Positions 1,893 through 14,408 of a stretch of 43,513 bases of DNA are shown here, piece by piece (within the stretch, counting starts at the first letter, position 1; the number at the start of each line of letters is the position of its first letter). Both the position numbers and the translations under genes were made by a program. Origin of the DNA: a virus; IMG/VR virus record IMGVR_UViG_3300025112_004324; one strand, 5' to 3'. The notes below the pieces were generated by a model. The model did not search any database and was not told where the DNA came from. It worked only from the letters and a program-made list of their open reading frames with translations.

Positions 1893-2320
1893 GCAGAAAG
1901 GCCGTACACCTTTCTGTGGGGTTGACTGAACAACAGGTTTTGATAAAGGCTTGTAATGTATCCCAATCCTCTATGGTAGAGAATCAGCACCTAAATGTTG
2001 GTGTTTTTAGGATGACAGTCCGTGCGGGAGTTTGAGTCAACACTACTTGAGAAAGTAAACCAACTTTTTCGCTTCATTGGGAGTACCCGAAAGGAAATCT
2101 CCCTGAGAACTGGCTGAATAAATCTTCTTTGAGGATTAAAGCAATCGGTTAGAAATTGTATTCGCCTCAACGATGTTTAATAGCATTGAGAGAGAATCGA
2201 AGTAACTTTCGGAAACGAGATATGAAGTAATCTATCAAAGTGGCTCAATGTGAAATGGTATTTTCACACCCCCAAAAATTTCAAAATTTTAAAGTAGTTC
2301 GTTATTTTCAGTCTCCACCA
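1893..2320 (+). ncRNA. Candidate large, highly structured non-coding RNA (family unassigned; boundaries approximate)
   Basis: No ORF of 60 aa or more; GC visibly higher than the flanks; many local hairpins including GNRA loops (TACTT-GAGA-AAGTA 2044-2057; CC-GAAA-GG 2087-2094); several 7-11 bp long-range complementarities; flanked by a promoter and a terminator. Confidence 0.65.
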
Positions 2321-2358
2321 TACCACCAGACGTGAAAACGATGAGCTACTTTTTTTTT
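2291..2358 (+). terminator. Long hairpin followed by T9; probable intrinsic terminator
   Basis: 2291-2314 pairs with 2328-2352 (about 23 bp with one mismatch and one bulge); 13-nt loop CCACCATACCACC; T run at 2350-2358. Confidence 0.65.
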
Positions 2359-2368
2359 ACAAAAAAAC

Positions 2369-2423
2369 TTGGATGGTTTTAGAATCTGGCTGATATATAT
2401 TACAGAATGATGGTTACATCATT
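2369..2423 (+). promoter_or_regulatory. Putative promoter and 5' hairpin of the SSB/recombination operon
   Basis: TG-A-TATATA (2391-2399) resembles an extended -10; hairpin AATGATG-GTTA-CATCATT at 2406-2423; RBS GGAG at 2448-2451. Confidence 0.4.
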
Positions 2424-2459
2424 ACTAATTAATAAATGAAATGTATAGGAGAATAAAAA

Positions 2460-3218
2460 ATGGATATTGATGCAATTCGTAAGAAATTAGAACAACTTCA
2501 AACAACAAACACCAGAACAACAAATCTTTGGAAACCACAGCCTGGTAAAACTCAAATAAGGATAGTACCTTATAAGTACAATAAATCAATTCCGTTCATT
2601 GAGTTATTTTTTCATTATGACTTGGGCGGAAAGAGTTATTTGTCACCTATCAGTTTTGGTCGTCCAGACCCGATTGAAGAGTTCGCAGATAAACTAAAAT
2701 CTTCCGGAAATAGGGAAGATTGGAGACTTGGTAAAAAGTTAGAAGCCAAGATGAGAACTTTTGCTCCCGTTGTAGTAAAAAGCGAAGAAGGAGAGGGTGT
2801 TAAATTCTGGGGTTTTGGTAAGACAGTTTATCAAGAACTTTTAAGTATTATAGCAGACCCTGATTATGGTGATATTAGTGATCCCGTAAATGGTCGTGAT
2901 GTAGTAGTAGAGTTCAAGACAGCTGAAGAAGTTGGATCTTCATTTCCAAAAACAAATATTCGTGTAAAACCAAATCAAACTCCTGTAACTGAAAATAAGG
3001 CAGTATTTGAAAGTATTCTTGAAAATCAAAAGAACATCACAGAAATCTATCAGGAACAGTCTTATGATGAACTTGCAGAAGTTTTACAAAATTGGTTAAG
3101 TCCCTCTGATGACGAGACAACTACAAAAGAAAGTGATTCAGCTACAGAAGCCACTTTGGAACAGACAACAACTGTAACAAATGCATCTGAAGCATTTGAT
3201 GAATTATTTAATAAGTAG
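2460..3218 (+). CDS. T4 gp32-like single-stranded DNA-binding protein
   Basis: WKPQPGKTQIRIVP, FFHY, DPIEEF, FWGFGKTVY and DPDYGDISDPVNGRD motifs; acidic tail ending DAFDELFNK. Confidence 0.85.
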   Translation: MDIDAIRKKLEQLQTTNTRTTNLWKPQPGKTQIRIVPYKYNKSIPFIELFFHYDLGGKSYLSPISFGRPDPIEEFADKLKSSGNREDWRLGKKLEAKMRTFAPVVVKSEEGEGVKFWGFGKTVYQELLSIIADPDYGDISDPVNGRDVVVEFKTAEEVGSSFPKTNIRVKPNQTPVTENKAVFESILENQKNITEIYQEQSYDELAEVLQNWLSPSDDETTTKESDSATEATLEQTTTVTNASEAFDELFNK

Positions 3219-3230
3219 GGGGAGTGTAAT

Positions 3231-4322
3231 ATGTCAGTCAGAGATGAATTGGCAGATGTTCTCGCTGAAAAGTTAAATAACCAATTCAAAGATTATAAGG
3301 TAGCTTATTTTCTAGACGGCTCAGACCCGACTCCAACAGACATTAAGGAATTTGTATCTACAGGTTCTACTGTGTTGGATTTGGCTATTTCAAACAAACC
3401 TAACGGTGGAGTTGCAGTTGGCCGAATTACTGAAATCAATGGATTGGAGTCAAGTGGTAAATCTTTGCTCGGTTCTCATATTTTAGCTGAAACACAGAGA
3501 AAAGGTGGAGTTGCTGTTTATATTGACACAGAAACTTCCGTCAGTAGAGAATTTCTCGAAGCAATTGGAATCGAAATTCAGAACTTATTGTATCTTCATT
3601 TGGAAACAGTTGAAGATGTATTTGAGGCTATTGTAGAAATAGTTGCAAAAGTTCGTGAGTCAGATAAAGATAGACTTGTAACAATTTTGGTTGACAGTTT
3701 AGCAGGAGCTTCTACAAAAGGTGAATTAGACGGCGATTTTGATAAAGAAGGTTGGGCGACTGATAAAGCTATTATCACAAGTAAAGCTATGAGAAAGATT
3801 ACTCAGATGATAGGAAAACAGAGAGTTGCCCTTATCTTTACAAATCAACTCAGAACCAGACTTGGAGTAATGTTTGGTGATCCTTGGACAACAAGTGGTG
3901 GTAAGGCATTACCATTTCACGCTTCCACTCGTATCAGATTAAAAAATCTCGGTCAAATTAAAGATGTTAAAAAGAATACTATTGGTATGAAAATGAAAGC
4001 TCAAGTCATTAAAAATAGACTTGGACCCCCAATGAGACATGCCGATTTCAATCTTTACTTTGAAAGTGGACTAGATAATGATGGAAGTTGGTTACAGGTG
4101 TTAAAAGACCATAAATTAGTGAAACAAAGTGGAGCATGGTATTCTATGGAAAACCATGAAGGAGAAGAATTAAAGTTTCAGTCTAAGGATTGGTCAGAAC
4201 AGCTGGAAGACGAGGGATTTAAATCTCATTGTTATGATTTGATTTGCGACAAAGCAATTTTGAAATATGACAAGAACTTTGGAATTGACGAAATTACAAT
4301 CTCAGAGGAGTCTGATGAGTAA
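3231..4322 (+). CDS. uvsX: RecA/UvsX-like recombinase
   Basis: Walker A GLESSGKS; YIDTE; ILVDSLA; FTNQLR; TTSGGKALPFHASTRIRL; KNRLGPP. Confidence 0.93.
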   Translation: MSVRDELADVLAEKLNNQFKDYKVAYFLDGSDPTPTDIKEFVSTGSTVLDLAISNKPNGGVAVGRITEINGLESSGKSLLGSHILAETQRKGGVAVYIDTETSVSREFLEAIGIEIQNLLYLHLETVEDVFEAIVEIVAKVRESDKDRLVTILVDSLAGASTKGELDGDFDKEGWATDKAIITSKAMRKITQMIGKQRVALIFTNQLRTRLGVMFGDPWTTSGGKALPFHASTRIRLKNLGQIKDVKKNTIGMKMKAQVIKNRLGPPMRHADFNLYFESGLDNDGSWLQVLKDHKLVKQSGAWYSMENHEGEELKFQSKDWSEQLEDEGFKSHCYDLICDKAILKYDKNFGIDEITISEESDE

Positions 4323-5346
4323 TGAACGATATTTATCTATTCTTGAAGAAATAAAGAAACACGGCGGCGATGTAGATGTAGGCAAGCCAAATGATAAGGT
4401 ATTGATAATAGATGGCCTGAATACTTTTATACGAGTATTCAGTGTTATACCAACTACCAATGATGATGGAGTTCATGTTGGTGGAATAGTTGGTTTTCTC
4501 AAATCAATCGGTTACTCTATAAAGATGCTTGGACCCACCCGTTGTATTGTTATTTTTGACGGTAAAGGTGGTTCTACTCGTCGCCGAAAAATTTATCCAG
4601 AATATAAGCAAAAACGAAAAACTAAAGTTCGTTTGAATAGATCATATGATTTTAGTTCTATGGAAGACGAACGCCATTCTATGTTAATGCAGTTGAGTAG
4701 ATGTGTGGAATACCTTGAAAAATTGCCTCTAACAGTCTTGTCGGTAGACAGCGTAGAAGCTGACGATGTTATTGCGTATATTACAGAACAAGTGCTCACA
4801 GAGAGTAAGGTTACAATAATGTCTACCGATAAAGATTTTTTACAACTCGTTGATGATCGAGTTTCAGTTTGGAGTCCAACCAAGAAAAAGTTATATACTC
4901 CAGAAAGTGTAAAAGAAGAATACGAAATTGCATCGTCTAATTTTATTATGTATAGAGTTTTAGATGGTGATAAGTCGGATAATATTTCTGGGATAAAGGG
5001 ATTTGGATTAAAAACCATTATTAAAAAATTTCCACTTCTTTTAGAAAACAAAGAGATAGATATAGATGAGTTAAAAGATTATGCAAGAAATAACGAGGTT
5101 GTACTTGAAGACGATGTTATAAATAGAAATTATAAATTAATGCAACTGAAAGAAGTTGATATATCAGCCAATGCAAAACTAAAAATTAGCACAAATGTTA
5201 ATAAATCAATACCACCAACTGCCAAGATGCAATTTGAAAAAATGTTTATCGAGGATAGATTATTTTCTACATTTCCAAATCTTAATAGTTGGTTATTGAC
5301 AACTTGGACTCAGTTGAATAGATACGCTGAAATGACAAATGGGTAG
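4315..5346 (+). CDS. 5'-3' exonuclease / flap endonuclease (T4 RNase H-like)
   Basis: IIDGLNTFIR, FDGKGG, YPEYK, EADD, STDKDFLQ and GDKSDNISGIKGFGLKT (H3TH) motifs. ATG 4315 follows GAGGAG. Confidence 0.9.
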   Translation: MSNERYLSILEEIKKHGGDVDVGKPNDKVLIIDGLNTFIRVFSVIPTTNDDGVHVGGIVGFLKSIGYSIKMLGPTRCIVIFDGKGGSTRRRKIYPEYKQKRKTKVRLNRSYDFSSMEDERHSMLMQLSRCVEYLEKLPLTVLSVDSVEADDVIAYITEQVLTESKVTIMSTDKDFLQLVDDRVSVWSPTKKKLYTPESVKEEYEIASSNFIMYRVLDGDKSDNISGIKGFGLKTIIKKFPLLLENKEIDIDELKDYARNNEVVLEDDVINRNYKLMQLKEVDISANAKLKISTNVNKSIPPTAKMQFEKMFIEDRLFSTFPNLNSWLLTTWTQLNRYAEMTNG

Positions 5347-5518
5347 AAAACGAAAATATTTTACAGAAGAAGAACAACAAGATGCTCAAAGGAGATGGCA
5401 GATGGAGCATTATGAACGCAACAAAGAAAAAATTCTGAGGAAAGCCCGAGACCGATATAGACAGAGGAAGTTGAAGGAGACACGGGAAAAAAATAGAAAA
5501 GAATTATATGGAGAGTAA
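5339..5518 (+). CDS. Small basic helical protein (59 aa, absent from the ORF track)
   Basis: Manual translation MGRKRKYFTEEEQQDAQRRWQMEHYERNKEKILRKARDRYRQRKLKETREKNRKELYGE*. It overlaps the upstream stop and exactly fills the gap before the helicase. Confidence 0.7.
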   Translation: MGRKRKYFTEEEQQDAQRRWQMEHYERNKEKILRKARDRYRQRKLKETREKNRKELYGE

Positions 5519-5527
5519 ATTTATACT

Positions 5528-6886
5528 ATGAGTGAGAATTTAACTAGCTTTGGTCCTACTTTTCAAATGAAAGTTATAGCTTCTCTATTAGAAGATCCTG
5601 TTTTTACACAAACAGTATTAGATATTTTAAAGCCAATATACTTTGAGTCAGATGCCAATAGATGGATAGTAGATACAATCGTTTCGTATTTTATGGAATA
5701 TAAAACCAATGCTACATTGGAAGTATTGAAAGTTAAGATAGATGAAATTGAAAATGATATATTGAAAGCGGGAGTTGTAGAAAATCTGAAGGAAGCTTGG
5801 CGAAATATTGAATCTCCTGACTTAGAGTTCATAAAAGAAGAAACTCTCAATTTTTGTAAGAACCAGGTCTTGAAAAATGCCATTGTACAGTCAGTTGACT
5901 TATTGGAAATTAAGGATTATGATGGAATCAAAAAATTGATAGATGACGCGATGAGATCTGGTGCAGAAAGAAATTTAGGACACGATTATATTATTGGAAT
6001 AGAAGAAAGACTTACTAAAAATGCAAGGGAAACTATAAAGTCGCCGTGGGATGTTGTAAATGAAATTATGGATGGTGGATTAGGTACAGGAGAATTGGGA
6101 GTTATTGTTGCACCAGCGGGAATTGGTAAAACTTGGTGTTTACAGTCTATTGCGGCAGGGGCAGTTAGAGATGGATTGTCAGTAATCCATTATACATTAG
6201 AATTGAATCAGGCTTATGTTGGATTACGATATGATACTGTTTTTAGTGGAGTTACTACTACTAATATAAAATTTCATAAAGAAAAAGTTGAAAAAATAAT
6301 AAGTGAGTTGGAAGGAAAATTGTTAATAAAATATTATCCAACAAAATCAGCTTCAGTTCAGACTCTTTCATCTCATCTTAAACAATCAGAAATACAAGGA
6401 ATTAAACCTGATTTAGTAATAGTAGATTATGCAGATATTTTGGTTGGAGTGGGAAGTGAAAGGAGATTTGTTTTAGAAAATGTATATGAGGAGTTAAGAG
6501 GACTGGCTGGTGAGTTTGACGTTCCAATTTGGACAGCATCACAAGCCAACAGAAGTGCACTTGAGGAACATATTATAGATGCAACAAAAGTTGCTGAGGC
6601 TTACGCAAAAGTTATGATTGCAGATTTTGTAATGAGTATGAGTAGGAAAGTTGAAGATAAAATTTCGAATACAGGCAGGTTTCATGTGATTAAAAATCGG
6701 TTTGGACCAGATGGAATTACATTTCCATCTACAGTTAATACTAATATAGGTAATATTCAAGTTTATGAAGAGACTACTAAAGGTGGAAAGATAGCACAAG
6801 GTAAAATGGACAATTCAAAAGAATATGAAAGAAAAATGTTATCAAAAAAATATGATGATATGAATAAAGTTGATGGATTTGAGTAA
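5528..6886 (+). CDS. DnaB-like replicative helicase (T4 gp41-like)
   Basis: Walker A APAGIGKT; YTLEL; IVDYADI; WTASQANR; KNRFGPDG. Confidence 0.92.
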   Translation: MSENLTSFGPTFQMKVIASLLEDPVFTQTVLDILKPIYFESDANRWIVDTIVSYFMEYKTNATLEVLKVKIDEIENDILKAGVVENLKEAWRNIESPDLEFIKEETLNFCKNQVLKNAIVQSVDLLEIKDYDGIKKLIDDAMRSGAERNLGHDYIIGIEERLTKNARETIKSPWDVVNEIMDGGLGTGELGVIVAPAGIGKTWCLQSIAAGAVRDGLSVIHYTLELNQAYVGLRYDTVFSGVTTTNIKFHKEKVEKIISELEGKLLIKYYPTKSASVQTLSSHLKQSEIQGIKPDLVIVDYADILVGVGSERRFVLENVYEELRGLAGEFDVPIWTASQANRSALEEHIIDATKVAEAYAKVMIADFVMSMSRKVEDKISNTGRFHVIKNRFGPDGITFPSTVNTNIGNIQVYEETTKGGKIAQGKMDNSKEYERKMLSKKYDDMNKVDGFE

Positions 6887-6971
6887 TAGAATGCAATATA
6901 TATTATACTTATGGATGTATTGGAATGAATGTTGTACTAAAATTAATTTTATTTGAAGAGGGATAGTTTAT

Positions 6972-8939
6972 ATGGAAAAATTCAAGTTATCAGATAATTT
7001 CATAGATAAATACAAGCGAAAAAGACCCCCATTTGGATTTAACGGACTCGGAGAATTAGTTTATATGAGAACTTATTCTCGCATCAAGGAAGATGGAAAA
7101 AACGAGCAATGGTGGGAAACTGTTCAAAGGGTTGTAGAGGGCACTTACTCAATGCAAATGAATTGGATTGATTCTCATCAACTTGGTTGGAATCCTTGGC
7201 AAGCACAGCGGTCAGCTCAAGAAATGTATGATAAGATATTCAATATGAAGTTTTTACCACCCGGCCGAGGTCTTTGGGCAATGGGAACTCCACTTACAGA
7301 AGAAAAAGGTCTTTATGCAGCACTGAACAATTGTGCATTTGTATCCACATCTACTATTAAAGACGATTATGCAAAACCATTTTGTTTTTTGATGGACGCA
7401 TCAATGTTGGGGGTAGGAGTTGGGTTTGATACAAAAGGTGCAAATCAAATCCTAATTAAAGGCCCCAATAAAAATAGAAATTCAGAATTATATGTAATTC
7501 CAGACACTCGGGAGGGTTGGATAGAATCTTTAAGGTTATTGTTAGAGAGTTATTTTCATGGAACATCACCTATAAAGTTTAATTATAATAAAATAAGAAA
7601 AGAGGGAGAACCAATTAAAGGTTTTGGTGGTCTTTCAAGTGGCCACAAACCATTAGAAGAGTCACACACAGGTATAAGAAAGGTTCTTGATGAAAACGTT
7701 GGATCTCCAATTAGTTCTACGGTTATTGTTGATATTATGAATCTTGTAGGTAAATGTGTAGTTGCGGGCAATGTTCGTAGAACAGCAGAGATTGTATTTG
7801 GTGATCCAAGTGATGAAGAGTATCTAAATCTCAAAAACTATAAAAAGAATCCACATAGAGAACAATATGGTTGGACTTCTAATAATTCAGTATTTGCAGA
7901 ACTTGGAATGGATTATACAGAGTCTTGTAAAAGAATTACAGACAACGGTGAACCTGGGTTTGCATGGTTAGAAAATATGAGAAGTTATGGTAGAATGTGT
8001 GATGAACCAAATGGTTATGATACACGAGCAGCAGGTGGCAATCCGTGTTTAGAACAGACATTAGAGTCATATGAGTTATGTTGTCTTGTAGAAACATTTC
8101 CGTTTCGTCATGAAAATTTGGAAGAGTTTAAAAGAACACTTAAATATGCCTATTTGTATGCTAAGACAGTAACACTCGGAAAGACTCATTGGCCAGAAAC
8201 TAATCGTGTTATGTTAAGAAATCGTAGAATTGGTTGTAGTGTTAGTGGTATTGCACAATTTATAACTTACAAAGGAATAGATGAACTGAAAACGTGGTTA
8301 ATGGATGGATATAATGTAATTCAAGATTGGGACAAGGTTTATAGTGAGTGGTTCGCAACCCCCCGTTCTATTAAGACTACTTCCGTAAAACCAAGTGGTA
8401 CTGTTTCACTATTAGCAGGTGCTACTCCAGGACTACATTATCCAGAAAGTAGATTATATATTAGACGAATAAGATTATCAAAATACAGTCCTTTACTTAA
8501 ACCACTTGAGGCCTCTGGATATAAGATAGAACCAGCATTTGGTTCAGAGGATACTACGGTAGTGGTGGAAGTTCCAGTCGATGTTGGTAAAGGAATAAGA
8601 ACTTCTAAGGAATTATCAGTATGGGAACAATTTAGTTTGGCAGCTTTTATGCAAAAGTATTGGGCAGACAATCAAGTTAGTTGTACTGTTACTTTTGATC
8701 CAGAAACAGAGAAAAGAGACTTGTCTCATGTTTTGGATATTTATCAGTATCAATTAAAGGGGATTTCTCTATTACCGAGAAGGAATGGAGGGGCTTATGC
8801 ACAAATGCCATATGAAGAAGTGGACAAGAAAAAATATGACACGATGATGTCAAAACTTAAATATTTATCTTTTAGACAGATTAAGGGAAGTGAGGCAGTG
8901 GTTGAAAAATTTTGTAATAATGATGTATGTGAAATTTAG
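6972..8939 (+). CDS. nrdJ: Class II (adenosylcobalamin-dependent) ribonucleotide reductase, monomeric RTPR type
   Basis: FLPPGRGLW, ALNNC, active-site NPCLE, ELCCLVE, TSVKPSGTVS and C-terminal CxxxxC (CNNDVC); no beta subunit nearby. Confidence 0.9.
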   Translation: MEKFKLSDNFIDKYKRKRPPFGFNGLGELVYMRTYSRIKEDGKNEQWWETVQRVVEGTYSMQMNWIDSHQLGWNPWQAQRSAQEMYDKIFNMKFLPPGRGLWAMGTPLTEEKGLYAALNNCAFVSTSTIKDDYAKPFCFLMDASMLGVGVGFDTKGANQILIKGPNKNRNSELYVIPDTREGWIESLRLLLESYFHGTSPIKFNYNKIRKEGEPIKGFGGLSSGHKPLEESHTGIRKVLDENVGSPISSTVIVDIMNLVGKCVVAGNVRRTAEIVFGDPSDEEYLNLKNYKKNPHREQYGWTSNNSVFAELGMDYTESCKRITDNGEPGFAWLENMRSYGRMCDEPNGYDTRAAGGNPCLEQTLESYELCCLVETFPFRHENLEEFKRTLKYAYLYAKTVTLGKTHWPETNRVMLRNRRIGCSVSGIAQFITYKGIDELKTWLMDGYNVIQDWDKVYSEWFATPRSIKTTSVKPSGTVSLLAGATPGLHYPESRLYIRRIRLSKYSPLLKPLEASGYKIEPAFGSEDTTVVVEVPVDVGKGIRTSKELSVWEQFSLAAFMQKYWADNQVSCTVTFDPETEKRDLSHVLDIYQYQLKGISLLPRRNGGAYAQMPYEEVDKKKYDTMMSKLKYLSFRQIKGSEAVVEKFCNNDVCEI

Positions 8940-8954
8940 AAATATCGTGGGAAA

Positions 8955-8990
8955 AACAGGCAGTTGACGCACCTGTTGAAAAATGCGTCA
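8955..8990 (+). promoter_or_regulatory. H-type RNA pseudoknot in the 5' leader of the TonB-dependent receptor gene
   Basis: Stem 1 AACAGG(8955-60)/CCTGTT(8972-77); stem 2 TGACGCA(8965-71)/TGCGTCA(8984-90); loop 1 CAGT; loop 3 GAAAAA. All 13 pairs are Watson-Crick. Confidence 0.6.
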
Positions 8991-9018
8991 TTTCAATAAA
9001 ACAATGAAGGAGACGATT

Positions 9019-11811
9019 ATGAAGAATCGTAACTTAATTTCTACATTGGCGGTGTTTTTTATGCCGATTGTTCTTTGGGGACAATCAGTTGCGGGAACAG
9101 TTACCGATGCAGAAACGAGTAAACCCCTAGTTGGAGCTAATGTTGTAGTAGAAGGAACTGATTTGGGTGCCGCTGCAGACGCAGATGGTGCTTATTCTAT
9201 CAAGGTAGATGCAGGTTCTTATACACTTACAGCTTCTTCAATTGGATATGCATCTCTTTCAGTAGAGGTTGATGTAGCGGAGGGGAAAGCGGTAAGTGCC
9301 GTAGACTTCTCCCTTTCAGTATCTGCATTAGAGATGTCTGCACTTGAGGTTTTGGCTTCGAGGGCAGATGAAAAAACACCTGTTGCTTATACTACGGTAG
9401 GAAAGGAAGAGATTGAATTTCGTCTTGGTTCACAAGACTTACCAATGTCTCTTAATCTTACTCCGAGTGTATATGCAACTCAACAGGGTGGTGGAGCAGG
9501 AGATGCACGTATCAATGTTCGTGGGTTTAACCAACGGAATATTGCGGTAATGATTAACGGAGTTCCACAGAATGATATGGAAAATGGTTGGGTCTATTGG
9601 TCTAACTGGGATGGTGTAGCAGATGTTGCACAATCCATCCAGATGCAACGTGGATTAAGTGCTGTTAATTTAGCTGCACCTTCTATTGGTGGAACTATGA
9701 ACATCATAACAGATCCTGCTGCTCTTGAAAAGGGTGGTAAATACAAACAGGAAGTTGGAGCAGGTGGATTCCTGAAATCAACTTTCAATTACAACACTGG
9801 GTTGGTAGCGGACAAGTTCGCTTTCAGTTTTACTGGTGTTAGAAAGACAGGTGATGGTGTCATAGACAAGACGTGGACAGATGCTTGGGCATATTACTTT
9901 GGTGCAAGTTACGCACTGAATGAAAAGAACCGATTCGAATTATATGCAGTCGGTGCACCACAACGTCATGGTCAGAATCTATACAAACAGAATCTTGGCG
10001 CATACGATGCCGAGTTTGCTGAAAGTGTAGAAGGATATGACGCTACAGCTCTTGGTGAAGATGGTCAGTTCAAAGATGTTGGACGAACATTTAACCAGAA
10101 CTGGTCACCAATTGACCCGTCTTATGAGGGTAAACAATATTGGTATATGTATGGAGCCAATACAGTTGCTAGACACGATCCTAACTATCTAAATGAAAGA
10201 GAGAACTTCTTTCACAAACCATTGGTTAACCTTAACCATTTCTTAACTATCAATGACAAAACAAGACTGAGTTCAGTCTTTTATTGGAGTGGTGGTTCAG
10301 GAGGTGGAACTGGTACTTATGGTAGGATTCCTACCTTAGATGCTGATGGTAACTTAGGTGATGATGATTATAAGTTCTATTATGGTCGTGGTCCCTGGAC
10401 TCGTGATTGGAATGCTCTTGTTGCTATGAACTCTGGCACAGATTCAGTAGTATATGTTGATAAGAGAGCTATTAGTAGAGAATCTGGTCAATCAGTAGGT
10501 ATTTTGAGGAACAGTATTAATCGTCAAAATACGATTGGTGTTATTTCTAAACTCAACTTAGATTTAAGTGATGCACTTAAATTACAGGCGGGTATAGATT
10601 GGCGTACTGCAGGTATAGAACATGCACGTGAAGTTCGTGATTTACTTGGTGGTGATTTCTATGTGGATTTTGCTGATGATAATGCACCTGATGGTAAAAA
10701 TGTTGAGTTAGGTGATATTATTGCTTATCACAATGAAACTACAGTTGATTGGTTAGGTGGATTCTTACAAGGATCATATTCCTCAGGTCCACTTTCAGCA
10801 TATGGTATGGGTGGAGTATCGAGCATTGCTTATACTTACCAAGACCATTTCACTGTTGCAGATGAAGTTATAGATCACGGTGATCCTATTATTACTACTC
10901 AGTTCAAAGGTGGAGCAATGTATGATGTTGCAGATAACGTTAGTGTTTTCGGTAACTTCGGTATTGTGGAAAAACCACCTATTATGGATAACGTGATTTA
11001 CTTTGATGGAACAGTTGCTTCAGACCCGGCAAATGAACAGTTTGTCAGTTCAGAAGCTGGAGTGAATTACAGTGCTAGAAATCTGGCAGTTAAAGTCAGT
11101 GCATACAATACAGATTGGAAAGATAGAAACCTTACCAAAGCTGTAACGAGTGGACAAGGTAGTTCAGGTGATACTGATGTTATCTTCTTATCTGGTATAA
11201 ACCAGAATCATAAAGGTGTTGAAGTAGAGGCATCTACTAATGTTACCAATATGGTTCGTTTGGATGCCGCAGTAAGTCTTGGAAACTGGACTTTTGTTGG
11301 TGATGCAGATGGTAATTATCAGGAAGATGAGTATAATGAACAAGGTCAGGTTGTTGGACAGACAACCACTCCATATTCTTACGCACTTGATGGTTTGTTT
11401 GTAGGTGATATGCCTCAGACAGCTTATGTTGTAGGTGTTACAGTAACACCAATAAAAGGACTTAGATTGCAATCTTCGTTCAATGTGTATGATGACAATT
11501 ATGCAGATTGGAGTCCTAATGCAAGAGAGTATGATGGTTCAGACGCAGACGCTGATAGAGAACAAGTATGGCAGGCACCTGGATTTTCTAGGATGGACTT
11601 ACATGCTACATACGATTTGCCAAAAATCGGTGGGTTGAATCTACAGGCATTTGCTCATATGTTTAACGCATTAGATGCTGTATATGTGCAGGATGCAGTA
11701 GATCACAGTCAATACAATAGTTACGGAGATAAAACTCACGCAGCTCATAACGCAGAAGTATTTCTTGGAATACCAAGATACTTTAATGCAGGTATTACTG
11801 TAAATTTCTAA
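9019..11811 (+). CDS. TonB-dependent outer-membrane receptor with N-terminal carboxypeptidase-regulatory-like domain
   Basis: Signal peptide MKNRNLISTLAVFFMPIVLWGQ; GTVTDAETSKPLVGANVVVEGT domain; plug motif INVRGFNQRNIAVMINGVPQND; beta-strand-rich barrel; terminal Phe (GITVNF). RBS AAGGAG favours ATG 9019. Confidence 0.9.
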   Translation: MKNRNLISTLAVFFMPIVLWGQSVAGTVTDAETSKPLVGANVVVEGTDLGAAADADGAYSIKVDAGSYTLTASSIGYASLSVEVDVAEGKAVSAVDFSLSVSALEMSALEVLASRADEKTPVAYTTVGKEEIEFRLGSQDLPMSLNLTPSVYATQQGGGAGDARINVRGFNQRNIAVMINGVPQNDMENGWVYWSNWDGVADVAQSIQMQRGLSAVNLAAPSIGGTMNIITDPAALEKGGKYKQEVGAGGFLKSTFNYNTGLVADKFAFSFTGVRKTGDGVIDKTWTDAWAYYFGASYALNEKNRFELYAVGAPQRHGQNLYKQNLGAYDAEFAESVEGYDATALGEDGQFKDVGRTFNQNWSPIDPSYEGKQYWYMYGANTVARHDPNYLNERENFFHKPLVNLNHFLTINDKTRLSSVFYWSGGSGGGTGTYGRIPTLDADGNLGDDDYKFYYGRGPWTRDWNALVAMNSGTDSVVYVDKRAISRESGQSVGILRNSINRQNTIGVISKLNLDLSDALKLQAGIDWRTAGIEHAREVRDLLGGDFYVDFADDNAPDGKNVELGDIIAYHNETTVDWLGGFLQGSYSSGPLSAYGMGGVSSIAYTYQDHFTVADEVIDHGDPIITTQFKGGAMYDVADNVSVFGNFGIVEKPPIMDNVIYFDGTVASDPANEQFVSSEAGVNYSARNLAVKVSAYNTDWKDRNLTKAVTSGQGSSGDTDVIFLSGINQNHKGVEVEASTNVTNMVRLDAAVSLGNWTFVGDADGNYQEDEYNEQGQVVGQTTTPYSYALDGLFVGDMPQTAYVVGVTVTPIKGLRLQSSFNVYDDNYADWSPNAREYDGSDADADREQVWQAPGFSRMDLHATYDLPKIGGLNLQAFAHMFNALDAVYVQDAVDHSQYNSYGDKTHAAHNAEVFLGIPRYFNAGITVNF

Positions 11812-11822
11812 CAAGCAAAAAG

Positions 11823-11874
11823 AAATGAAATGTAACAGGGGAAGTAGAAATATTTCCCCTGTGTTTCATTTTTT
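11823..11874 (+). terminator. Intrinsic terminator after the receptor gene (possibly bidirectional)
   Basis: ACAGGGGAAGTA-GAAA-TATTTCCCCTGT 12-bp stem with GNRA loop, extended by AAATGAAA/TTTCATTT and followed by a T run. Confidence 0.8.
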
Positions 11875-11894: not shown

Positions 11895-14408
11895 ATGTAT
11901 CAGAATATTTATTTCGATAATTTCAGAAAAAAAATACATATTTGGGATGATAAAAAAGGCTATCTTGTTTTGCCACACAAGAGGTATGCTTATGTGAAAA
12001 ATTCAAATGGAAGATATGTTTCATTATATGGTGATAGATTAAATAAAGTTTATAAGTGGGATAATGACCAGCCAGGACTTCACGAGAGTGATGTTAATGC
12101 AGAGATAAGGGCGTTAGTAGATATATATACAGATTCGGATGAAGTTTCAGAAGGACATAGAGTTGCTTTTATAGATATAGAAGTTGAAGTTACAGAGGGG
12201 TTTCCAAATGTTAGTAAGGCGGAAAACAAGATTACTTCAATAGCATTTTATGATAAAATTATGGATGAATATAGTTGTTTTGTATTAGATCCAGACAATA
12301 AATTAAATATAGATGTTCAAGAAAATAGAATTATAGAAACATTTAAAACTGAAGAAGAATTATTATCTGGGTTTTTTAGAAAATACCTTGAAGTATCTCC
12401 TACAATTCTTTCTGGATGGAATATAGATTTTTTTGATATTCCATATCTTTATAATAGAGCAATTCAAGTTCTTGGAAATGAATTTGCAAATTTATTATCT
12501 CCTATAAGAGAGGTACATTGGAGTAAGTATAAAAATAGATATTTGATAGCAGGAGTATCGTGTCTTGATTATTTAAGTCTTTATAAGAAGTTTACATTTG
12601 GAGGAAAACCTTCCTATAGATTAGATGATATAGGTGAGAACGAAGTTGGTGTAAAGAAAATTCCATATTCTGGAACATTAAATGATTTATATGAAAATGA
12701 TTTAAAGAAGTTTGTTGAATATAATATTAATGATGTTGAAATTATTAAGAAGTTAGATGATAAGTTAGATTTTATAGAAATTTGTAGAGGTATATGTCAT
12801 ATGGGGCACTGTCCGTATGAAGACATTTATCATAGTAGTCGATATTTGGAAGGGGCGATTTTAACTTATCTTAAAAGATTGGATATCGTAGCACCAAATA
12901 AAGATCCAAAGGGCAGAGAAAAAATGGATACAGGGGTTAAGTTTGTTGGTGCTTATGTACAAGAGCCACAGAAAGGAAAACACGATTGGATTTATGATTT
13001 AGATGTTACTTCAATGTATCCATCTACAATTATGAGTTTGAATATATCTCCAGAAACTAAAATTGGTAAAGTGAAAGGGTGGAATGCTAAACAATTTATT
13101 AGGGGTGAGAAAAAAACATATACAGCACATACTAAAGATGGTAAATTAAAAGGAAGTACAAGTGAATCTAAATTAAAAAAATATTTAGATGACAATAAGA
13201 TTTCAATTTCTACGAATGGAATTCTTTACAGAACAGACAAGAGAGGATTGATACCAGCATTATTAGAAACTTGGTTTGATCAGAGAGTGGAATATCGAAA
13301 ATTAATGAAAAAATTTGCAGAAAAAGAAGATAATGAAAAGTATTTATATTTTAATCGGAGACAACACTTACAAAAGATTTTATTAAATTCTATGTATGGA
13401 GTATTGGGATTGCCCGTTTTTAGGTTTTACGATTTAGATAATGCAGCTGCTACAACTGAAACCGGCCAATCTCTTATTAAATACAGTAAGGAAATTGTGA
13501 ATTTCTATTACAATAAAGAACTTGGAACATCTAAGGACTATGTAATTTATATAGATACTGATAGTATTTTTGCTCCAGCATTACCATTAATAGAAAAAAA
13601 ATATCCAACTGTCGGTATTAAAAGTGATGTTATGATTTCAGAGAAAATTTTAGATGTTGCAGAAAATGTTCAGGAGTTTATAAATGATTCTTACAATCAT
13701 TTCGCCAAAAACTTTTGTAATTTGGACACACACAGATTTCAAATTAAACAAGAGGTCATAGCTAAGAGTGGATTGTTTGTTACTAAGAAACGATATGGGA
13801 TGAGAATAATAAATGATAATGGAGTTAAAGTAAATAAAATTCTTGTAAAGGGATTGGATACAGTTAGGAGTAATTTTCCACCCGCTCTTAGAAAATTATT
13901 ATCTGATGTTTTAGAAGATATTTTGGCAGATGTACCGAAAGATAAAATAGATGATAGAATTATTAATTTTAAGAAAAGTATGAAATTAATGAATATAGAT
14001 AAGATAGCAACTCCAACTGGTGTAAAAGGACTTAGGAAGTATGCTAGAAAAGGAGAAGAAAACGGATCTATTCTCACAATCTTTAAGAAAGGAGCTCCAG
14101 TTCACGTCAAAGCAGCAGTCAGATATAATGATTTGTTAAAACATTACAAAAGAGATGATAAATATATGTTCATAAATAACGGAGATAAAATTCGGTGGTC
14201 ATATATGAAGAATAATGAACTTGGAATTGAAGTGGTTGCTTATAGGGGGCATGAAGATCCACCAGAAATTATAAAGTTCATCAAAGAAAATATAGATTAT
14301 AATAAAATTTATAAACAATCGTTAAAGAAAAAAATTGATATGTTCTATAAAAGTTTGAAATGGGGCGACCCAGTAGATAAACAGCAAACAATAGAAAGAT
14401 TTTTTTGA
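11895..14408 (+). CDS. Family B DNA polymerase (T4 gp43-like)
   Basis: Exonuclease motifs DIE, GWNIDFFDIPYL and YNINDV; polymerase motifs DLDVTSMYP, KILLNSMYG, YIDTDS and KKRY. Confidence 0.96.
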   Translation: MYQNIYFDNFRKKIHIWDDKKGYLVLPHKRYAYVKNSNGRYVSLYGDRLNKVYKWDNDQPGLHESDVNAEIRALVDIYTDSDEVSEGHRVAFIDIEVEVTEGFPNVSKAENKITSIAFYDKIMDEYSCFVLDPDNKLNIDVQENRIIETFKTEEELLSGFFRKYLEVSPTILSGWNIDFFDIPYLYNRAIQVLGNEFANLLSPIREVHWSKYKNRYLIAGVSCLDYLSLYKKFTFGGKPSYRLDDIGENEVGVKKIPYSGTLNDLYENDLKKFVEYNINDVEIIKKLDDKLDFIEICRGICHMGHCPYEDIYHSSRYLEGAILTYLKRLDIVAPNKDPKGREKMDTGVKFVGAYVQEPQKGKHDWIYDLDVTSMYPSTIMSLNISPETKIGKVKGWNAKQFIRGEKKTYTAHTKDGKLKGSTSESKLKKYLDDNKISISTNGILYRTDKRGLIPALLETWFDQRVEYRKLMKKFAEKEDNEKYLYFNRRQHLQKILLNSMYGVLGLPVFRFYDLDNAAATTETGQSLIKYSKEIVNFYYNKELGTSKDYVIYIDTDSIFAPALPLIEKKYPTVGIKSDVMISEKILDVAENVQEFINDSYNHFAKNFCNLDTHRFQIKQEVIAKSGLFVTKKRYGMRIINDNGVKVNKILVKGLDTVRSNFPPALRKLLSDVLEDILADVPKDKIDDRIINFKKSMKLMNIDKIATPTGVKGLRKYARKGEENGSILTIFKKGAPVHVKAAVRYNDLLKHYKRDDKYMFINNGDKIRWSYMKNNELGIEVVAYRGHEDPPEIIKFIKENIDYNKIYKQSLKKKIDMFYKSLKWGDPVDKQQTIERFF

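What the first reader, a model, noticed from the sequence alone, without database searches (positions are those of the whole stretch)
6972..11811. B12-dependent RNR directly followed by a TonB-dependent receptor: possible cofactor-supply module
Seen: nrdJ and the receptor gene are adjacent (79 nt apart) with no terminator between them, and a strong terminator follows the receptor. Known: class II RNR strictly needs adenosylcobalamin, and Gram-negative bacteria import cobalamin through TonB-dependent BtuB. Inference: the phage may boost B12 (or another nutrient) uptake to fuel dNTP synthesis. Caveats: the receptor is not recognisably BtuB by eye, and no cobalamin riboswitch is visible.
Basis: inference. 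Interest (0 to 1): 0.7.

Follow-up and report, generated by a model that had tools for sequence, protein, structure and literature searches.

The report
Phage-borne SAR406 outer-membrane importer gene
An uncultured marine T4-like phage carries an intact copy of an outer-membrane nutrient importer taken from SAR406 (Marinimicrobia) bacteria, sitting right after its vitamin-B12-dependent ribonucleotide reductase; the adjacency is real and widespread, but the evidence says it is not the B12 importer.

Summary
nrdJ (6972-8939, monomeric B12-dependent RTPR type) is followed after 79 nt by an intact 930-aa TonB-dependent transporter (TBDT, 9019-11811). No terminator lies between them and a strong one follows. 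The B12-supply reading is not supported.

- **Host B12 importer is a different gene.** The receptor's cellular orthologues are a conserved Marinimicrobia gene beside dnaG with no cobalamin riboswitch. Three of five host-phylum genomes put their single cobalamin riboswitch in front of an unrelated ~685-aa BtuB-like TBDT.
- **The pairing is not obligatory.** Three complete nrdJ phage genomes lack the receptor, as do 55 of 59 informative nrdJ loci. Eleven IMG/VR contigs and five metagenome loci carry it in another context (after HSP20).
- **The fold does not name a cargo.** It is a generic TBDT; E. coli BtuB tops one aligner's list but is about tied with siderophore receptors.

The phage copies form one clade nested in Marinimicrobia. 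They are under purifying selection (dN/dS ~0.18), have the same plug and TonB box as the host gene, and have phage-like third-codon GC. They travel with a covarying pseudoknot leader.

Best reading: a self-contained, host-derived uptake gene that uses host TonB to import an unknown, probably non-B12 nutrient. Earlier reports of this scan reached the same reading on other DNA.

The parts
6972..8939 (+). nrdJ: monomeric class II (adenosylcobalamin-dependent) ribonucleoside-triphosphate reductase, 655 aa, with no intein
   Evidence: Pfam RNR_Alpha, RNR-II_ins_dom and Ribonuc_red_lgC. TIGR02505 scores 344.3 bits against a cut-off of 340.05. phrog_367 matches.
8940..9018 (+). 79-nt spacer between nrdJ and the receptor; it holds the leader and no terminator
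   Evidence: Sequence read. No terminator-like site in the scan. No Rfam match at E <= 10.
8955..8990 (+). H-type pseudoknot leader: stem 1 is 8955-8960 with 8972-8977, stem 2 is 8965-8971 with 8984-8990, and the A-rich loop is 8978-8983
   Evidence: It lies about 24-39 nt before the ATG in both phage contexts. On 59 distinct leaders, 8 of 12 pairs show double-sided changes and 0 of 500 shuffles reach the observed covariation score. It occurs once in the window. No consistent counterpart is found before the cellular orthologues.
9007..9012 (+). Shine-Dalgarno AAGGAG, 6 nt before the ATG
   Evidence: Sequence. GGAG is nearly invariant in the leader alignment A2.
9019..11811 (+). TonB-dependent transporter, 930 aa. 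Signal peptide residues 1-22; CarboxypepD_reg extension about 24-107; TonB-box-like SALEVLAS 107-114; plug about 118-226; barrel about 239-930; C-terminal Phe.
   Evidence: Pfam domains. AF2 model with pLDDT 75.9 and pTM 0.72. Foldseek best E 4.5e-25 to TBDTs. VIA-align Z 20-26 to about 30 TBDTs. Median dN/dS among phage copies is 0.18. Invariant TonB-box and plug residues are listed.
11821..11873 (+). Intrinsic terminator closing the receptor cassette
   Evidence: 12-bp stem with 5 GC pairs, followed by a T run; dG -31.4 kcal/mol, z -7.46.
11895..14408 (+). Family B DNA polymerase. In receptor-less relatives it follows nrdJ directly.
   Evidence: Pfam DNA_pol_B and DNA_pol_B_exo1. L190, L193, L198 and L208/L209 have polB starting about 60-80 nt after nrdJ.

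Best explanation
The receptor is a self-contained, host-derived gene cassette made of a pseudoknot leader, a ribosome-binding site, the TBDT ORF and a terminator. An ancestor of these T4-like marine phages captured it once from a Marinimicrobia (SAR406) bacterium. In this phage it sits in the variable nrdJ-polB junction of the replication module. During infection the protein is probably exported by the host Sec and BAM machinery into the outer membrane and energised by the host's TonB-ExbBD through its conserved TonB box. There it would add to, or replace, the host's own copy of the same importer, so that the infected cell keeps importing that importer's substrate while the phage replicates. 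The substrate is unknown and is probably not cobalamin. Shown here: the anatomy, the single origin nested in Marinimicrobia, purifying selection, conservation of the TonB box and plug, independence from nrdJ, and the existence of a separate B12 locus in the host phylum. Inferred: expression, membrane insertion, use of host TonB, the benefit to the phage, and the host assignment.
For: - **Intact TBDT:** the gene has every TBDT part.
- **Host source:** close cellular relatives (52-77% identity) lie almost only in Marinimicrobia/Fidelibacterota genomes, and 40 of the 68 cellular copies classified sit in a conserved 309-aa-ORF/dnaG/cvpA/yqeY neighbourhood.
- **Single capture:** phage copies form one clade (support 100), nested among cellular copies when rooted on a paralogue.
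- **Selection:** median dN/dS among phage copies is 0.18. No residue is near-fixed differently between phage and cell copies. Plug residues 151-225 have near-zero entropy in both groups, and the TonB box is invariant or nearly so.
- **Long residence:** GC3 of the gene is 0.25, like its neighbours at 0.20-0.25, so the GC bump comes from amino-acid composition.
- **Travels as a cassette:** the same covarying pseudoknot leader precedes it in both the nrdJ context and the HSP20 context, and a strong terminator follows.
- **Insertion into a junction:** receptor-less relatives have nrdJ followed directly by polB.
- **Dependence on host TonB:** no TonB_C domain is found in five phage records.
- **Spread:** 316 IMG/VR contigs encode a relative.
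Against: - No expression, localisation or transport data exist.
- The substrate is unknown. Neighbouring genes in cells give no clue (SRAP, HhH-GPD, AbiEii, peptidase U32).
- The host assignment rests on this one gene.
- All phage records that carry the receptor are fragments (13-63% complete by CheckV).
- The plug is modelled with low confidence (pLDDT below 50 for residues 132-221).
- Outer-membrane proteins are long-lived, so the need to replace one during infection is not obvious.
Confidence: 0.6

Rival explanations
1. Cofactor-supply module: the receptor imports cobalamin to feed the adjacent adenosylcobalamin-dependent NrdJ, and the two genes are co-transcribed.
For: - The adjacency is conserved: 65 of 80 IMG/VR contigs have nrdJ upstream of the receptor.
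- No terminator lies between the two genes.
- NrdJ is a B12-dependent RTPR.
- E. coli BtuB (1nqe) is the top VIA-align match (Z 26.1) and B. thetaiotaomicron BtuB3 is third (Z 25.1).
- JGI labels some relatives 'outer membrane cobalamin receptor'. I take this to be an automatic, generic label (my own assumption, not checked).
Against: - There is no BtuB family hit (TIGR01779, NF007926) at E <= 0.001 and no cobalamin riboswitch.
- In three Marinimicrobia genomes the only cobalamin riboswitch lies 62-77 nt before a different ~685-aa TBDT, whose best NCBIfam hit is TonB-B12. That protein has no significant similarity to the phage protein (E 0.17). In one genome it lies 220 kb from the phage gene's orthologue on the same contig.
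- The VIA-align ranking is flat, with about 30 TBDTs of many cargoes at Z 20-26. Foldseek ranks Fiu, PqqU and FhuA first, with no BtuB in the 40-odd rows shown.
- Three 97-100% complete nrdJ phages lack the receptor, as do 55 of 59 informative nrdJ loci.
- The receptor also sits in an HSP20 context, on records of 25-70 kb that hold no RNR.
Confidence: 0.08
2. Iron or haem acquisition: the importer brings in an iron source for the phage's iron-demanding enzymes and Fe-S proteins.
For: - In the HSP20-context phages L006-L008 the same gene island carries SufE, SufBD, ferredoxins, BolA and a haem oxygenase 3-9 kb upstream of the receptor. L014 has the haem oxygenase too.
- Most top fold matches are siderophore or haem receptors.
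- The plug region has a weak NCBIfam match to the haemoglobin/transferrin receptor family.
Against: - Solved TBDT structures are mostly iron transporters, so the fold ranking is biased and flat.
- The family hit covers the plug only (38 bits against a cut-off of 324).
- I did not see the FRAP/NPNL haem-receptor motifs when reading the sequence (by eye).
- The Suf and haem-oxygenase genes are absent from this window and are not adjacent to the receptor.
- No iron regulator or siderophore gene lies beside the cellular orthologues.
Confidence: 0.1
3. Surface remodelling rather than nutrition: the phage copy changes the cell surface, for example by diluting or replacing the host receptor to block superinfection, or by acting as a decoy. 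TBDTs are common phage receptors.
For: - TBDTs such as FhuA and BtuB are classic phage and colicin receptors. Structures of FhuA with the T5 protein pb5 and with the exclusion lipoprotein Llp are among the fold matches.
- The gene shows mosaic exchange among phages: 100% nucleotide identity up to about 9560, then about 85%, with the two contexts intermixed on the tree.
Against: - No residue distinguishes phage copies from host copies (0 near-fixed differences).
- Phage copies are less variable than cellular ones in nearly every segment, the exposed loops included (mean entropy 0.72 against 0.96). This is not what an arms-race surface would show.
- The TonB box and plug are fully conserved, which argues that transport itself is under selection.
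Confidence: 0.12
4. Neutral passenger or assembly artefact: the receptor is host DNA carried along, or wrongly joined to a phage contig.
For: One mosaic breakpoint lies inside the gene when this window is compared with L002, and it could be an assembly chimera. Metagenome assemblers can join contigs at conserved segments (general knowledge).
Against: - The same nrdJ-receptor-polB order appears in dozens of contigs from many samples, with receptor identity running from 63 to 89%.
- All 71 full-length phage copies examined are intact, and dN/dS is 0.18.
- GC3 is phage-like.
- The phage clade is separated from all cellular copies by a branch with support 100.
Confidence: 0.03

Closest known systems
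Chromosomal orthologue in Marinimicrobia/SAR406 (Fidelibacterota): an uncharacterised ~910-1000-aa CarboxypepD_reg-Plug-barrel TBDT, usually beside a 309-aa ORF, dnaG, cvpA and yqeY
   Same: It is 52-77% identical over the full length, with the same domain order and the same TonB box. The plug is nearly identical, and no residue is fixed differently.
   Different: The cellular genes lack the pseudoknot leader and sit among housekeeping genes. The phage copies form their own clade. The function of the cellular gene is itself unknown.
SusC-like TonB-dependent receptor reported as an auxiliary gene of the marine megaphage Mar_Mega_1 and of LR745206 (PMC9723777)
   Same: It is a phage-encoded TBDT of the FCB-group type, proposed to raise nutrient uptake during infection.
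   Different: Only the plug region aligns with the megaphage records LR745206 and LR756501-3 (14-23% of the query, 28-32% identity). That is a different phage group and a different TBDT clade. This protein fails the SusC/RagA model cut-off (59 against 368 bits) and has no SusD partner.
BtuB, the cobalamin TBDT (E. coli 1nqe; Bacteroides BtuB1-3 with BtuG, PMC10404256 and PMC6143338)
   Same: It has the 22-strand barrel-and-plug fold. 1nqe is the top VIA-align match (Z 26.1, 491 residues aligned, 13% identity).
   Different: There is no BtuB family hit and no cobalamin riboswitch. The protein is about 330 residues longer and has an N-terminal extension. Host-phylum genomes have a separate riboswitch-linked BtuB-like gene. 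The structural ranking is about tied with FyuA, PiuA and others.
Nutrient-uptake auxiliary genes of marine phages, such as cyanophage pstS (own knowledge, not checked here)
   Same: A host transport component copied into a T4-like marine phage and kept under selection, presumably to sustain uptake during infection.
   Different: pstS encodes a periplasmic binding protein of known cargo. This gene encodes an outer-membrane, TonB-energised channel of unknown cargo, with its own RNA leader.

Membership tests
TonB-dependent transporter (TBDT) | N-terminal signal peptide and a C-terminal aromatic residue (beta-signal) | tested here: met
   The protein begins MKNRNLISTLAVFFMPIVLWGQ|S and ends ...GITVNF. 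F930 is kept in at least 90% of 95 sequences.
TonB-dependent transporter (TBDT) | Plug domain (PF07715) | tested here: met
   Plug scores 50 bits against a cut-off of 23.9. Residues 151-225 are almost invariant across phage and cell copies.
TonB-dependent transporter (TBDT) | TonB box before the plug | tested here: inconclusive
   The motif SALEVLAS (107-114) lies where a TonB box is expected. E110, A113 and S114 are invariant and S107, V111 and L112 nearly so. Its identity as a TonB box rests on resemblance to known boxes (own knowledge), not on a binding test.
TonB-dependent transporter (TBDT) | 22-strand beta-barrel enclosing the plug | tested here: met
   The AF2 barrel has pLDDT of about 80-90. 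Foldseek gives E 4.5e-25 to Fiu with probability 1.0. VIA-align gives Z 20-26 to about 30 TBDTs across residues 110-930.
BtuB (cobalamin TBDT) | Match to the BtuB equivalog models TIGR01779 or NF007926 | tested here: not met
   Neither model is listed at E <= 0.001 for the phage protein. The riboswitch-linked Marinimicrobia TBDTs do hit both models, though below the cut-off.
BtuB (cobalamin TBDT) | Cobalamin riboswitch in the leader, as is usual for btuB (own knowledge) | tested here: not met
   RF00174 is absent from the window and from L002-L004, L006 and L009 at the gathering score. Nothing matches 8930-9030 at E <= 10. The same tool finds RF00174 elsewhere in three host-phylum genomes.
BtuB (cobalamin TBDT) | Orthology to the B12-regulated TBDT of the host lineage | tested here: not met
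   BLASTP against the riboswitch-linked TBDT gives E 0.17. The phage gene's orthologues are the dnaG-linked TBDTs.
BtuB (cobalamin TBDT) | Structure closer to BtuB than to other TBDTs | tested here: inconclusive
   1nqe ranks first by VIA-align (Z 26.1) but is about tied with FyuA (25.8), BtuB3 (25.1) and PiuA (24.2). Foldseek ranks Fiu, PqqU and FhuA first.
BtuB (cobalamin TBDT) | Binds and transports cobalamin | not testable with these tools
   This needs a binding or complementation assay.
SusC/RagA TBDT | TIGR04056 above its cut-off, and an adjacent SusD-like lipoprotein gene | tested here: not met
   TIGR04056 scores 59 bits against 368, over the N-terminal extension and plug only. The downstream gene is polB in the phage. 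The cellular neighbours tested carry no SusD family.
Class II monomeric ribonucleotide reductase (RTPR, NrdJ) | TIGR02505 above its cut-off, with the RNR_Alpha and class II insertion domains | tested here: met
   344.3 bits against 340.05. PF17975 at 1.6e-43 and PF21995 at 5.7e-12.
Phage auxiliary metabolic gene | Host-derived gene inside a bona fide phage genome, kept under purifying selection | tested here: met
   It is flanked by gp32-like (PF08804 on the identical gene of L002), RecA-like, 5'-3' exonuclease, DnaB-like, NrdJ and PolB genes, all on one strand. The phage clade is nested in Marinimicrobia. dN/dS is 0.18.
Phage auxiliary metabolic gene | Expressed and functional during infection | not testable with these tools
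   No transcript or protein data are available here.

The most novel reading that the evidence does not exclude
The receptor with its 36-nt pseudoknot leader is a mobile, recombining module that moves between genome positions and between at least two lineages of SAR406 phages. The pseudoknot would be a new small riboswitch or protein operator that couples importer synthesis to the level of the imported nutrient, or to phage replication state as gp32 does at its own mRNA leader in T4.
Probability: 0.12. Interest if true: 0.8.

Novelty: new member of a known kind. Interest (0 to 1): 0.5.

Why it matters
[quoted passage not shown] A gene nested within Marinimicrobia diversity gives a host for a large group of uncultured T4-like phages (316 IMG/VR contigs).
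- **A new layer of uptake genes.** It shows that ocean phages carry outer-membrane, TonB-energised importers, not only periplasmic or cytoplasmic uptake genes.
- **A pointer to what limits infection.** The phage has kept this one host importer for a very long time. That marks it as a candidate for whatever limits phage production in SAR406, so it is a good target for finding its cargo.
- **A caution about synteny.** Conserved adjacency in a T4-like replication module can simply be inherited and need not mean a functional link.

Tried and rejected
- **Known RNA in the spacer:** a cobalamin riboswitch or any other Rfam family was not found, at the gathering scores or at E <= 10.
- **Deposited phage genomes:** megablast of the locus found nothing. 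tblastn gave at best 30% identity, to human-gut contigs and to the plug region of megaphages.
- **Family libraries:** PHROGs gave only a weak hit to a family of unknown function. NCBIfam gave only partial hits, all below their cut-offs.
- **Cargo from cellular neighbours:** the genes beside the cellular orthologues are unrelated housekeeping or defence genes.
- **Cargo from fold:** the ranking is flat, and BtuB, FyuA, PiuA, FoxA-like and other transporters are about tied.
- **RNR class of the HSP20-context phages:** no RNR of any class lies on those 25-70 kb fragments, so this is inconclusive.
- **Both contexts in one genome:** the 131.8-kb record G011 has the nrdJ context and no hsp20, 291-aa-ORF or pdf genes. 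The 69.5-kb record G006 has the reverse. Both are fragments, so this stays unresolved.
- **Phage-encoded TonB:** none was found.
- **Literature:** no paper describes a phage TBDT of this clade or SAR406 phages. Only the Mar_Mega_1 SusC mention turned up.
- **DUF5074 as BtuG-like:** I considered calling the DUF5074 protein beside one host BtuB-like gene BtuG-like and dropped it for lack of support.
- **Promoter for the receptor:** the sigma-70-type scan gives no more sites than chance (45 found, 45.5 expected).
Full report
**Observation**

All ORFs of at least 100 aa outside other ORFs lie on the + strand, and GC is about 0.31. The window is 43.5 kb of a 53-kb IMG/VR virus record.

Around the finding the gene order is gp32-like, RecA-like, 5'-3' exonuclease, DnaB-like helicase, NrdJ, TonB-dependent receptor, family B DNA polymerase. 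This is a T4-like replication module.

- **NrdJ (6972-8939).** It passes the curated cut-off of TIGR02505, the monomeric adenosylcobalamin-dependent ribonucleoside-triphosphate reductase (344.3 against 340.05 bits).
- **Receptor start.** The ORF is open from 8983. All relatives start at the ATG equivalent to 9019 (MKNRNL...), and AAGGAG lies 6 nt upstream.
- **Receptor anatomy.** The protein has a signal peptide, a CarboxypepD_reg N-terminal extension, a TonB-box-like SALEVLAS, a Plug, a barrel and a terminal Phe.
- **Terminators.** The scan finds none in the spacer. It finds a 12-bp hairpin with a T run after the stop (dG -31.4 kcal/mol, z -7.5).

**What the receptor is**

An AF2 model built on 95 homologues (pLDDT 75.9; barrel 80-90, plug poorly modelled) matches solved TonB-dependent transporters.

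- **Foldseek:** E 4.5e-25, with Fiu, PqqU and FhuA first.
- **VIA-align:** Z 26.1 for E. coli BtuB, 25.8 for FyuA, 25.1 for Bacteroides BtuB3 and 24.2 for PiuA, continuing down to Z 20 over about 30 transporters of many cargoes.

The fold is therefore a TBDT, and the ranking is too flat to name a cargo. NCBIfam gives only partial hits below their cut-offs, and none to the BtuB models.

**Where it comes from**

Close relatives (74-89% identity among the 120 best listed) are abundant in metagenomes.

- **Cellular relatives.** In one-genome-per-species GTDB contigs, 79 of the 80 best loci look cellular, almost all of them Marinimicrobia/Neomarinimicrobiota/Fidelibacterota MAGs and SAGs at 52-77% identity. 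The remaining one (L124) is a phage contig binned into a Flavobacteriales MAG.
- **Conserved position.** In 40 of the 68 cellular copies classified, the gene lies next to a 309-aa ORF, dnaG, cvpA and yqeY. This neighbourhood is conserved down to about 40% DnaG identity.
- **Trees.** Phage and cellular copies are separated by a branch with support 100. Rooted on a neighbouring paralogue, the single phage clade nests inside cellular diversity (FastTree with 131 rows; IQ-TREE with 50 rows, SH-aLRT 100). The rooting rests on one close paralogue and on fast methods.
- **Selection and residence.** Median dN/dS among phage copies is 0.18. No position is near-fixed differently between phage and cell. 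The plug has near-zero entropy in both groups. GC3 of the gene (0.25) equals that of its neighbours, so the GC bump comes from codon positions 1 and 2.

Together this points to an old capture that has been kept working.

**Is it tied to nrdJ?**

The adjacency is widespread. 316 IMG/VR contigs encode a relative. Of the 80 fetched, 65 have nrdJ upstream of the receptor (about 90-150 nt away in nearly all), and 4 more are cut at the receptor but have polB after it. Three results argue that this is inheritance rather than a functional pair.

1. **A second context.** Eleven IMG/VR contigs and five metagenome loci carry the receptor in a different context: HSP20, small ORFs, a 291-aa membrane protein, then the receptor. 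Peptide deformylase, 7-deazaguanine genes, a tmRNA or Suf and haem-oxygenase genes lie nearby. On the receptor tree the two contexts are intermixed, with at least 7 switches forced by well-supported branches.
2. **nrdJ without the receptor.** Equally similar nrdJ genes (73-78% identity) in the same dnaB-nrdJ-polB module lack the receptor in 55 of 59 loci with enough flanking sequence, often with polB only 60-130 nt downstream. Three 97-100% complete nrdJ phage genomes have no receptor anywhere. The same query found the gene in the window's own record.
3. **Its own control elements.** The receptor brings its own leader and terminator in both contexts (next section).

**The leader**

Following a lead from earlier notes of this scan, I tested the spacer. 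Positions 8955-8990 can form an H-type pseudoknot, with stems of 6 and 7 bp and an A-rich loop.

- It recurs about 24-39 nt before the ATG in both phage contexts.
- On 59 distinct leaders, 8 of 12 pairs show double-sided changes. Examples are CG to UA at one pair of stem 1 and AU to GC in 21 sequences at one pair of stem 2.
- 90% of cells are paired, against 18-58% when partners are slid. None of 500 shuffles reaches the observed covariation score.
- It is unique in the window, matches no Rfam family, and has no consistent counterpart before the cellular genes.

What it does is open. It makes the receptor a self-contained cassette.

**The direct B12 test**

Rfam's cobalamin riboswitch is absent from the phage loci. 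It is present once in each of 3 of 5 Marinimicrobia genomes.

- **A separate B12 locus.** Each time the riboswitch lies 62-77 nt upstream of a different ~685-aa TBDT. The best NCBIfam hits of that TBDT are the BtuB models, although below their cut-offs.
- **Unrelated to the phage protein.** BLASTP between the two gives E 0.17.
- **Far from the orthologue.** In one genome the B12 locus lies 220 kb from the phage gene's orthologue on the same contig.

So the host phylum has its own B12-regulated importer, and the phage copied a different one. Cobalamin binding itself remains untested, and I leave about 8% for the B12 reading.

**Mechanism proposed**

The phage transcript, read through from nrdJ or started from a promoter I could not identify, is translated under control of the leader. 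The protein would use the host's Sec, BAM and TonB-ExbBD machinery; no TonB_C domain is found in five phage records. It would then add importer capacity for the orthologue's cargo during infection.

The cargo is unknown. The Suf and haem-oxygenase neighbours in some relatives hint weakly at iron. A role in surface remodelling is less likely, because phage copies are not distinguishable from host copies and are less variable than they are.

**Caveats**

- Every record that carries the receptor is a fragment.
- Compared with contig L002, the window is 100% identical in nucleotide sequence from 2160 to about 9560. It is then only about 85% identical inside the receptor and unrelated after the stop. 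This is either real recombination in the highly conserved plug-coding stretch or an assembly chimera in one of the two contigs.
- Some apparent context switches could have the same cause.
- The host assignment rests on one gene.

**Novelty**

A SusC-like receptor has been mentioned as an auxiliary gene of the marine megaphage Mar_Mega_1 (PMC9723777). Only the plug region aligns with the related megaphage records LR745206 and LR756501-3.

I found no paper on this clade or on SAR406 phages. Earlier reports of this scan reached the same reading on other DNA.

I class it as a new member of a known kind, a phage nutrient-uptake auxiliary gene. The B12-module idea is not supported.

Noticed in passing
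window 2160-11811 compared with L002:1-9649: The two contigs are 100% identical in nucleotide sequence for 7.4 kb (gp32-like gene through nrdJ, the leader and the first ~540 nt of the receptor). Identity then drops abruptly to about 85% at about 9560, inside the highly conserved plug-coding region, and the sequences are unrelated after the stop. This is either recombination within the receptor gene or an assembly chimera.
   Followed up: partly
L021:7966-8987 (also L022, L060, L255-L257, L261): In several relatives nrdJ is interrupted in frame at residue ~360, right after GGNPC, by a ~340-aa insert that begins CIVGE, ends ...HNC and contains an HNH-like motif. It looks like an intein. L056 and L060 have an insert near residue 260-270, and L060 carries both. 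The window's nrdJ has none.
   Followed up: partly
L003:12494-12935: A full-length tmRNA gene (RF00023, 70 bits) lies on an HSP20-context phage contig, near 7-deazaguanine (QueC, QueD-like, radical-SAM, GTP cyclohydrolase I) genes and a peptide deformylase.
   Followed up: no
L006:1140-5657 (also L007, L008, L014): HSP20-context phages carry an iron-sulfur and haem gene island (SufE, SufBD, two ferredoxins, BolA, haem oxygenase) 3-9 kb upstream of the receptor.
   Followed up: no
L002:9705-9778 and L009:12908-12981: In these relatives a tRNA gene lies directly after the receptor. In the window the terminator and polB lie there instead.
   Followed up: no
L173:5946-8271, L174:4249-6550, L175:105-2358: Marinimicrobia genomes have a single cobalamin riboswitch, 62-77 nt before a ~685-aa BtuB-like TBDT. 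In L174 a DUF5074 protein with a T9SS sorting tail follows it.
   Followed up: partly
L194, L195, L203, L207, L214, L223 (between nrdJ and polB): The nrdJ-polB junction of receptor-less relatives holds other inserts of 1.6-3.7 kb. The junction looks like a general hotspot for insertions. The content of these inserts was not examined.
   Followed up: no
L124 (NZWA01000089.1) and L138 (JAFMFP010000048.1): L124 is a phage contig with nrdJ-receptor-polB that was binned into a 'Flavobacteriales' MAG. L138 is a 4.3-kb contig in a Marinimicrobia MAG that carries a phage-clade receptor. Both are likely binning carry-over of phage DNA.
   Followed up: partly
L049, L067, L069: These three contigs show nrdJ-receptor followed by the genes that follow the receptor in the HSP20 context (a 227-aa ORF and/or peptide deformylase) instead of polB. 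They are hybrids of the two contexts, either real or chimeric.
   Followed up: no
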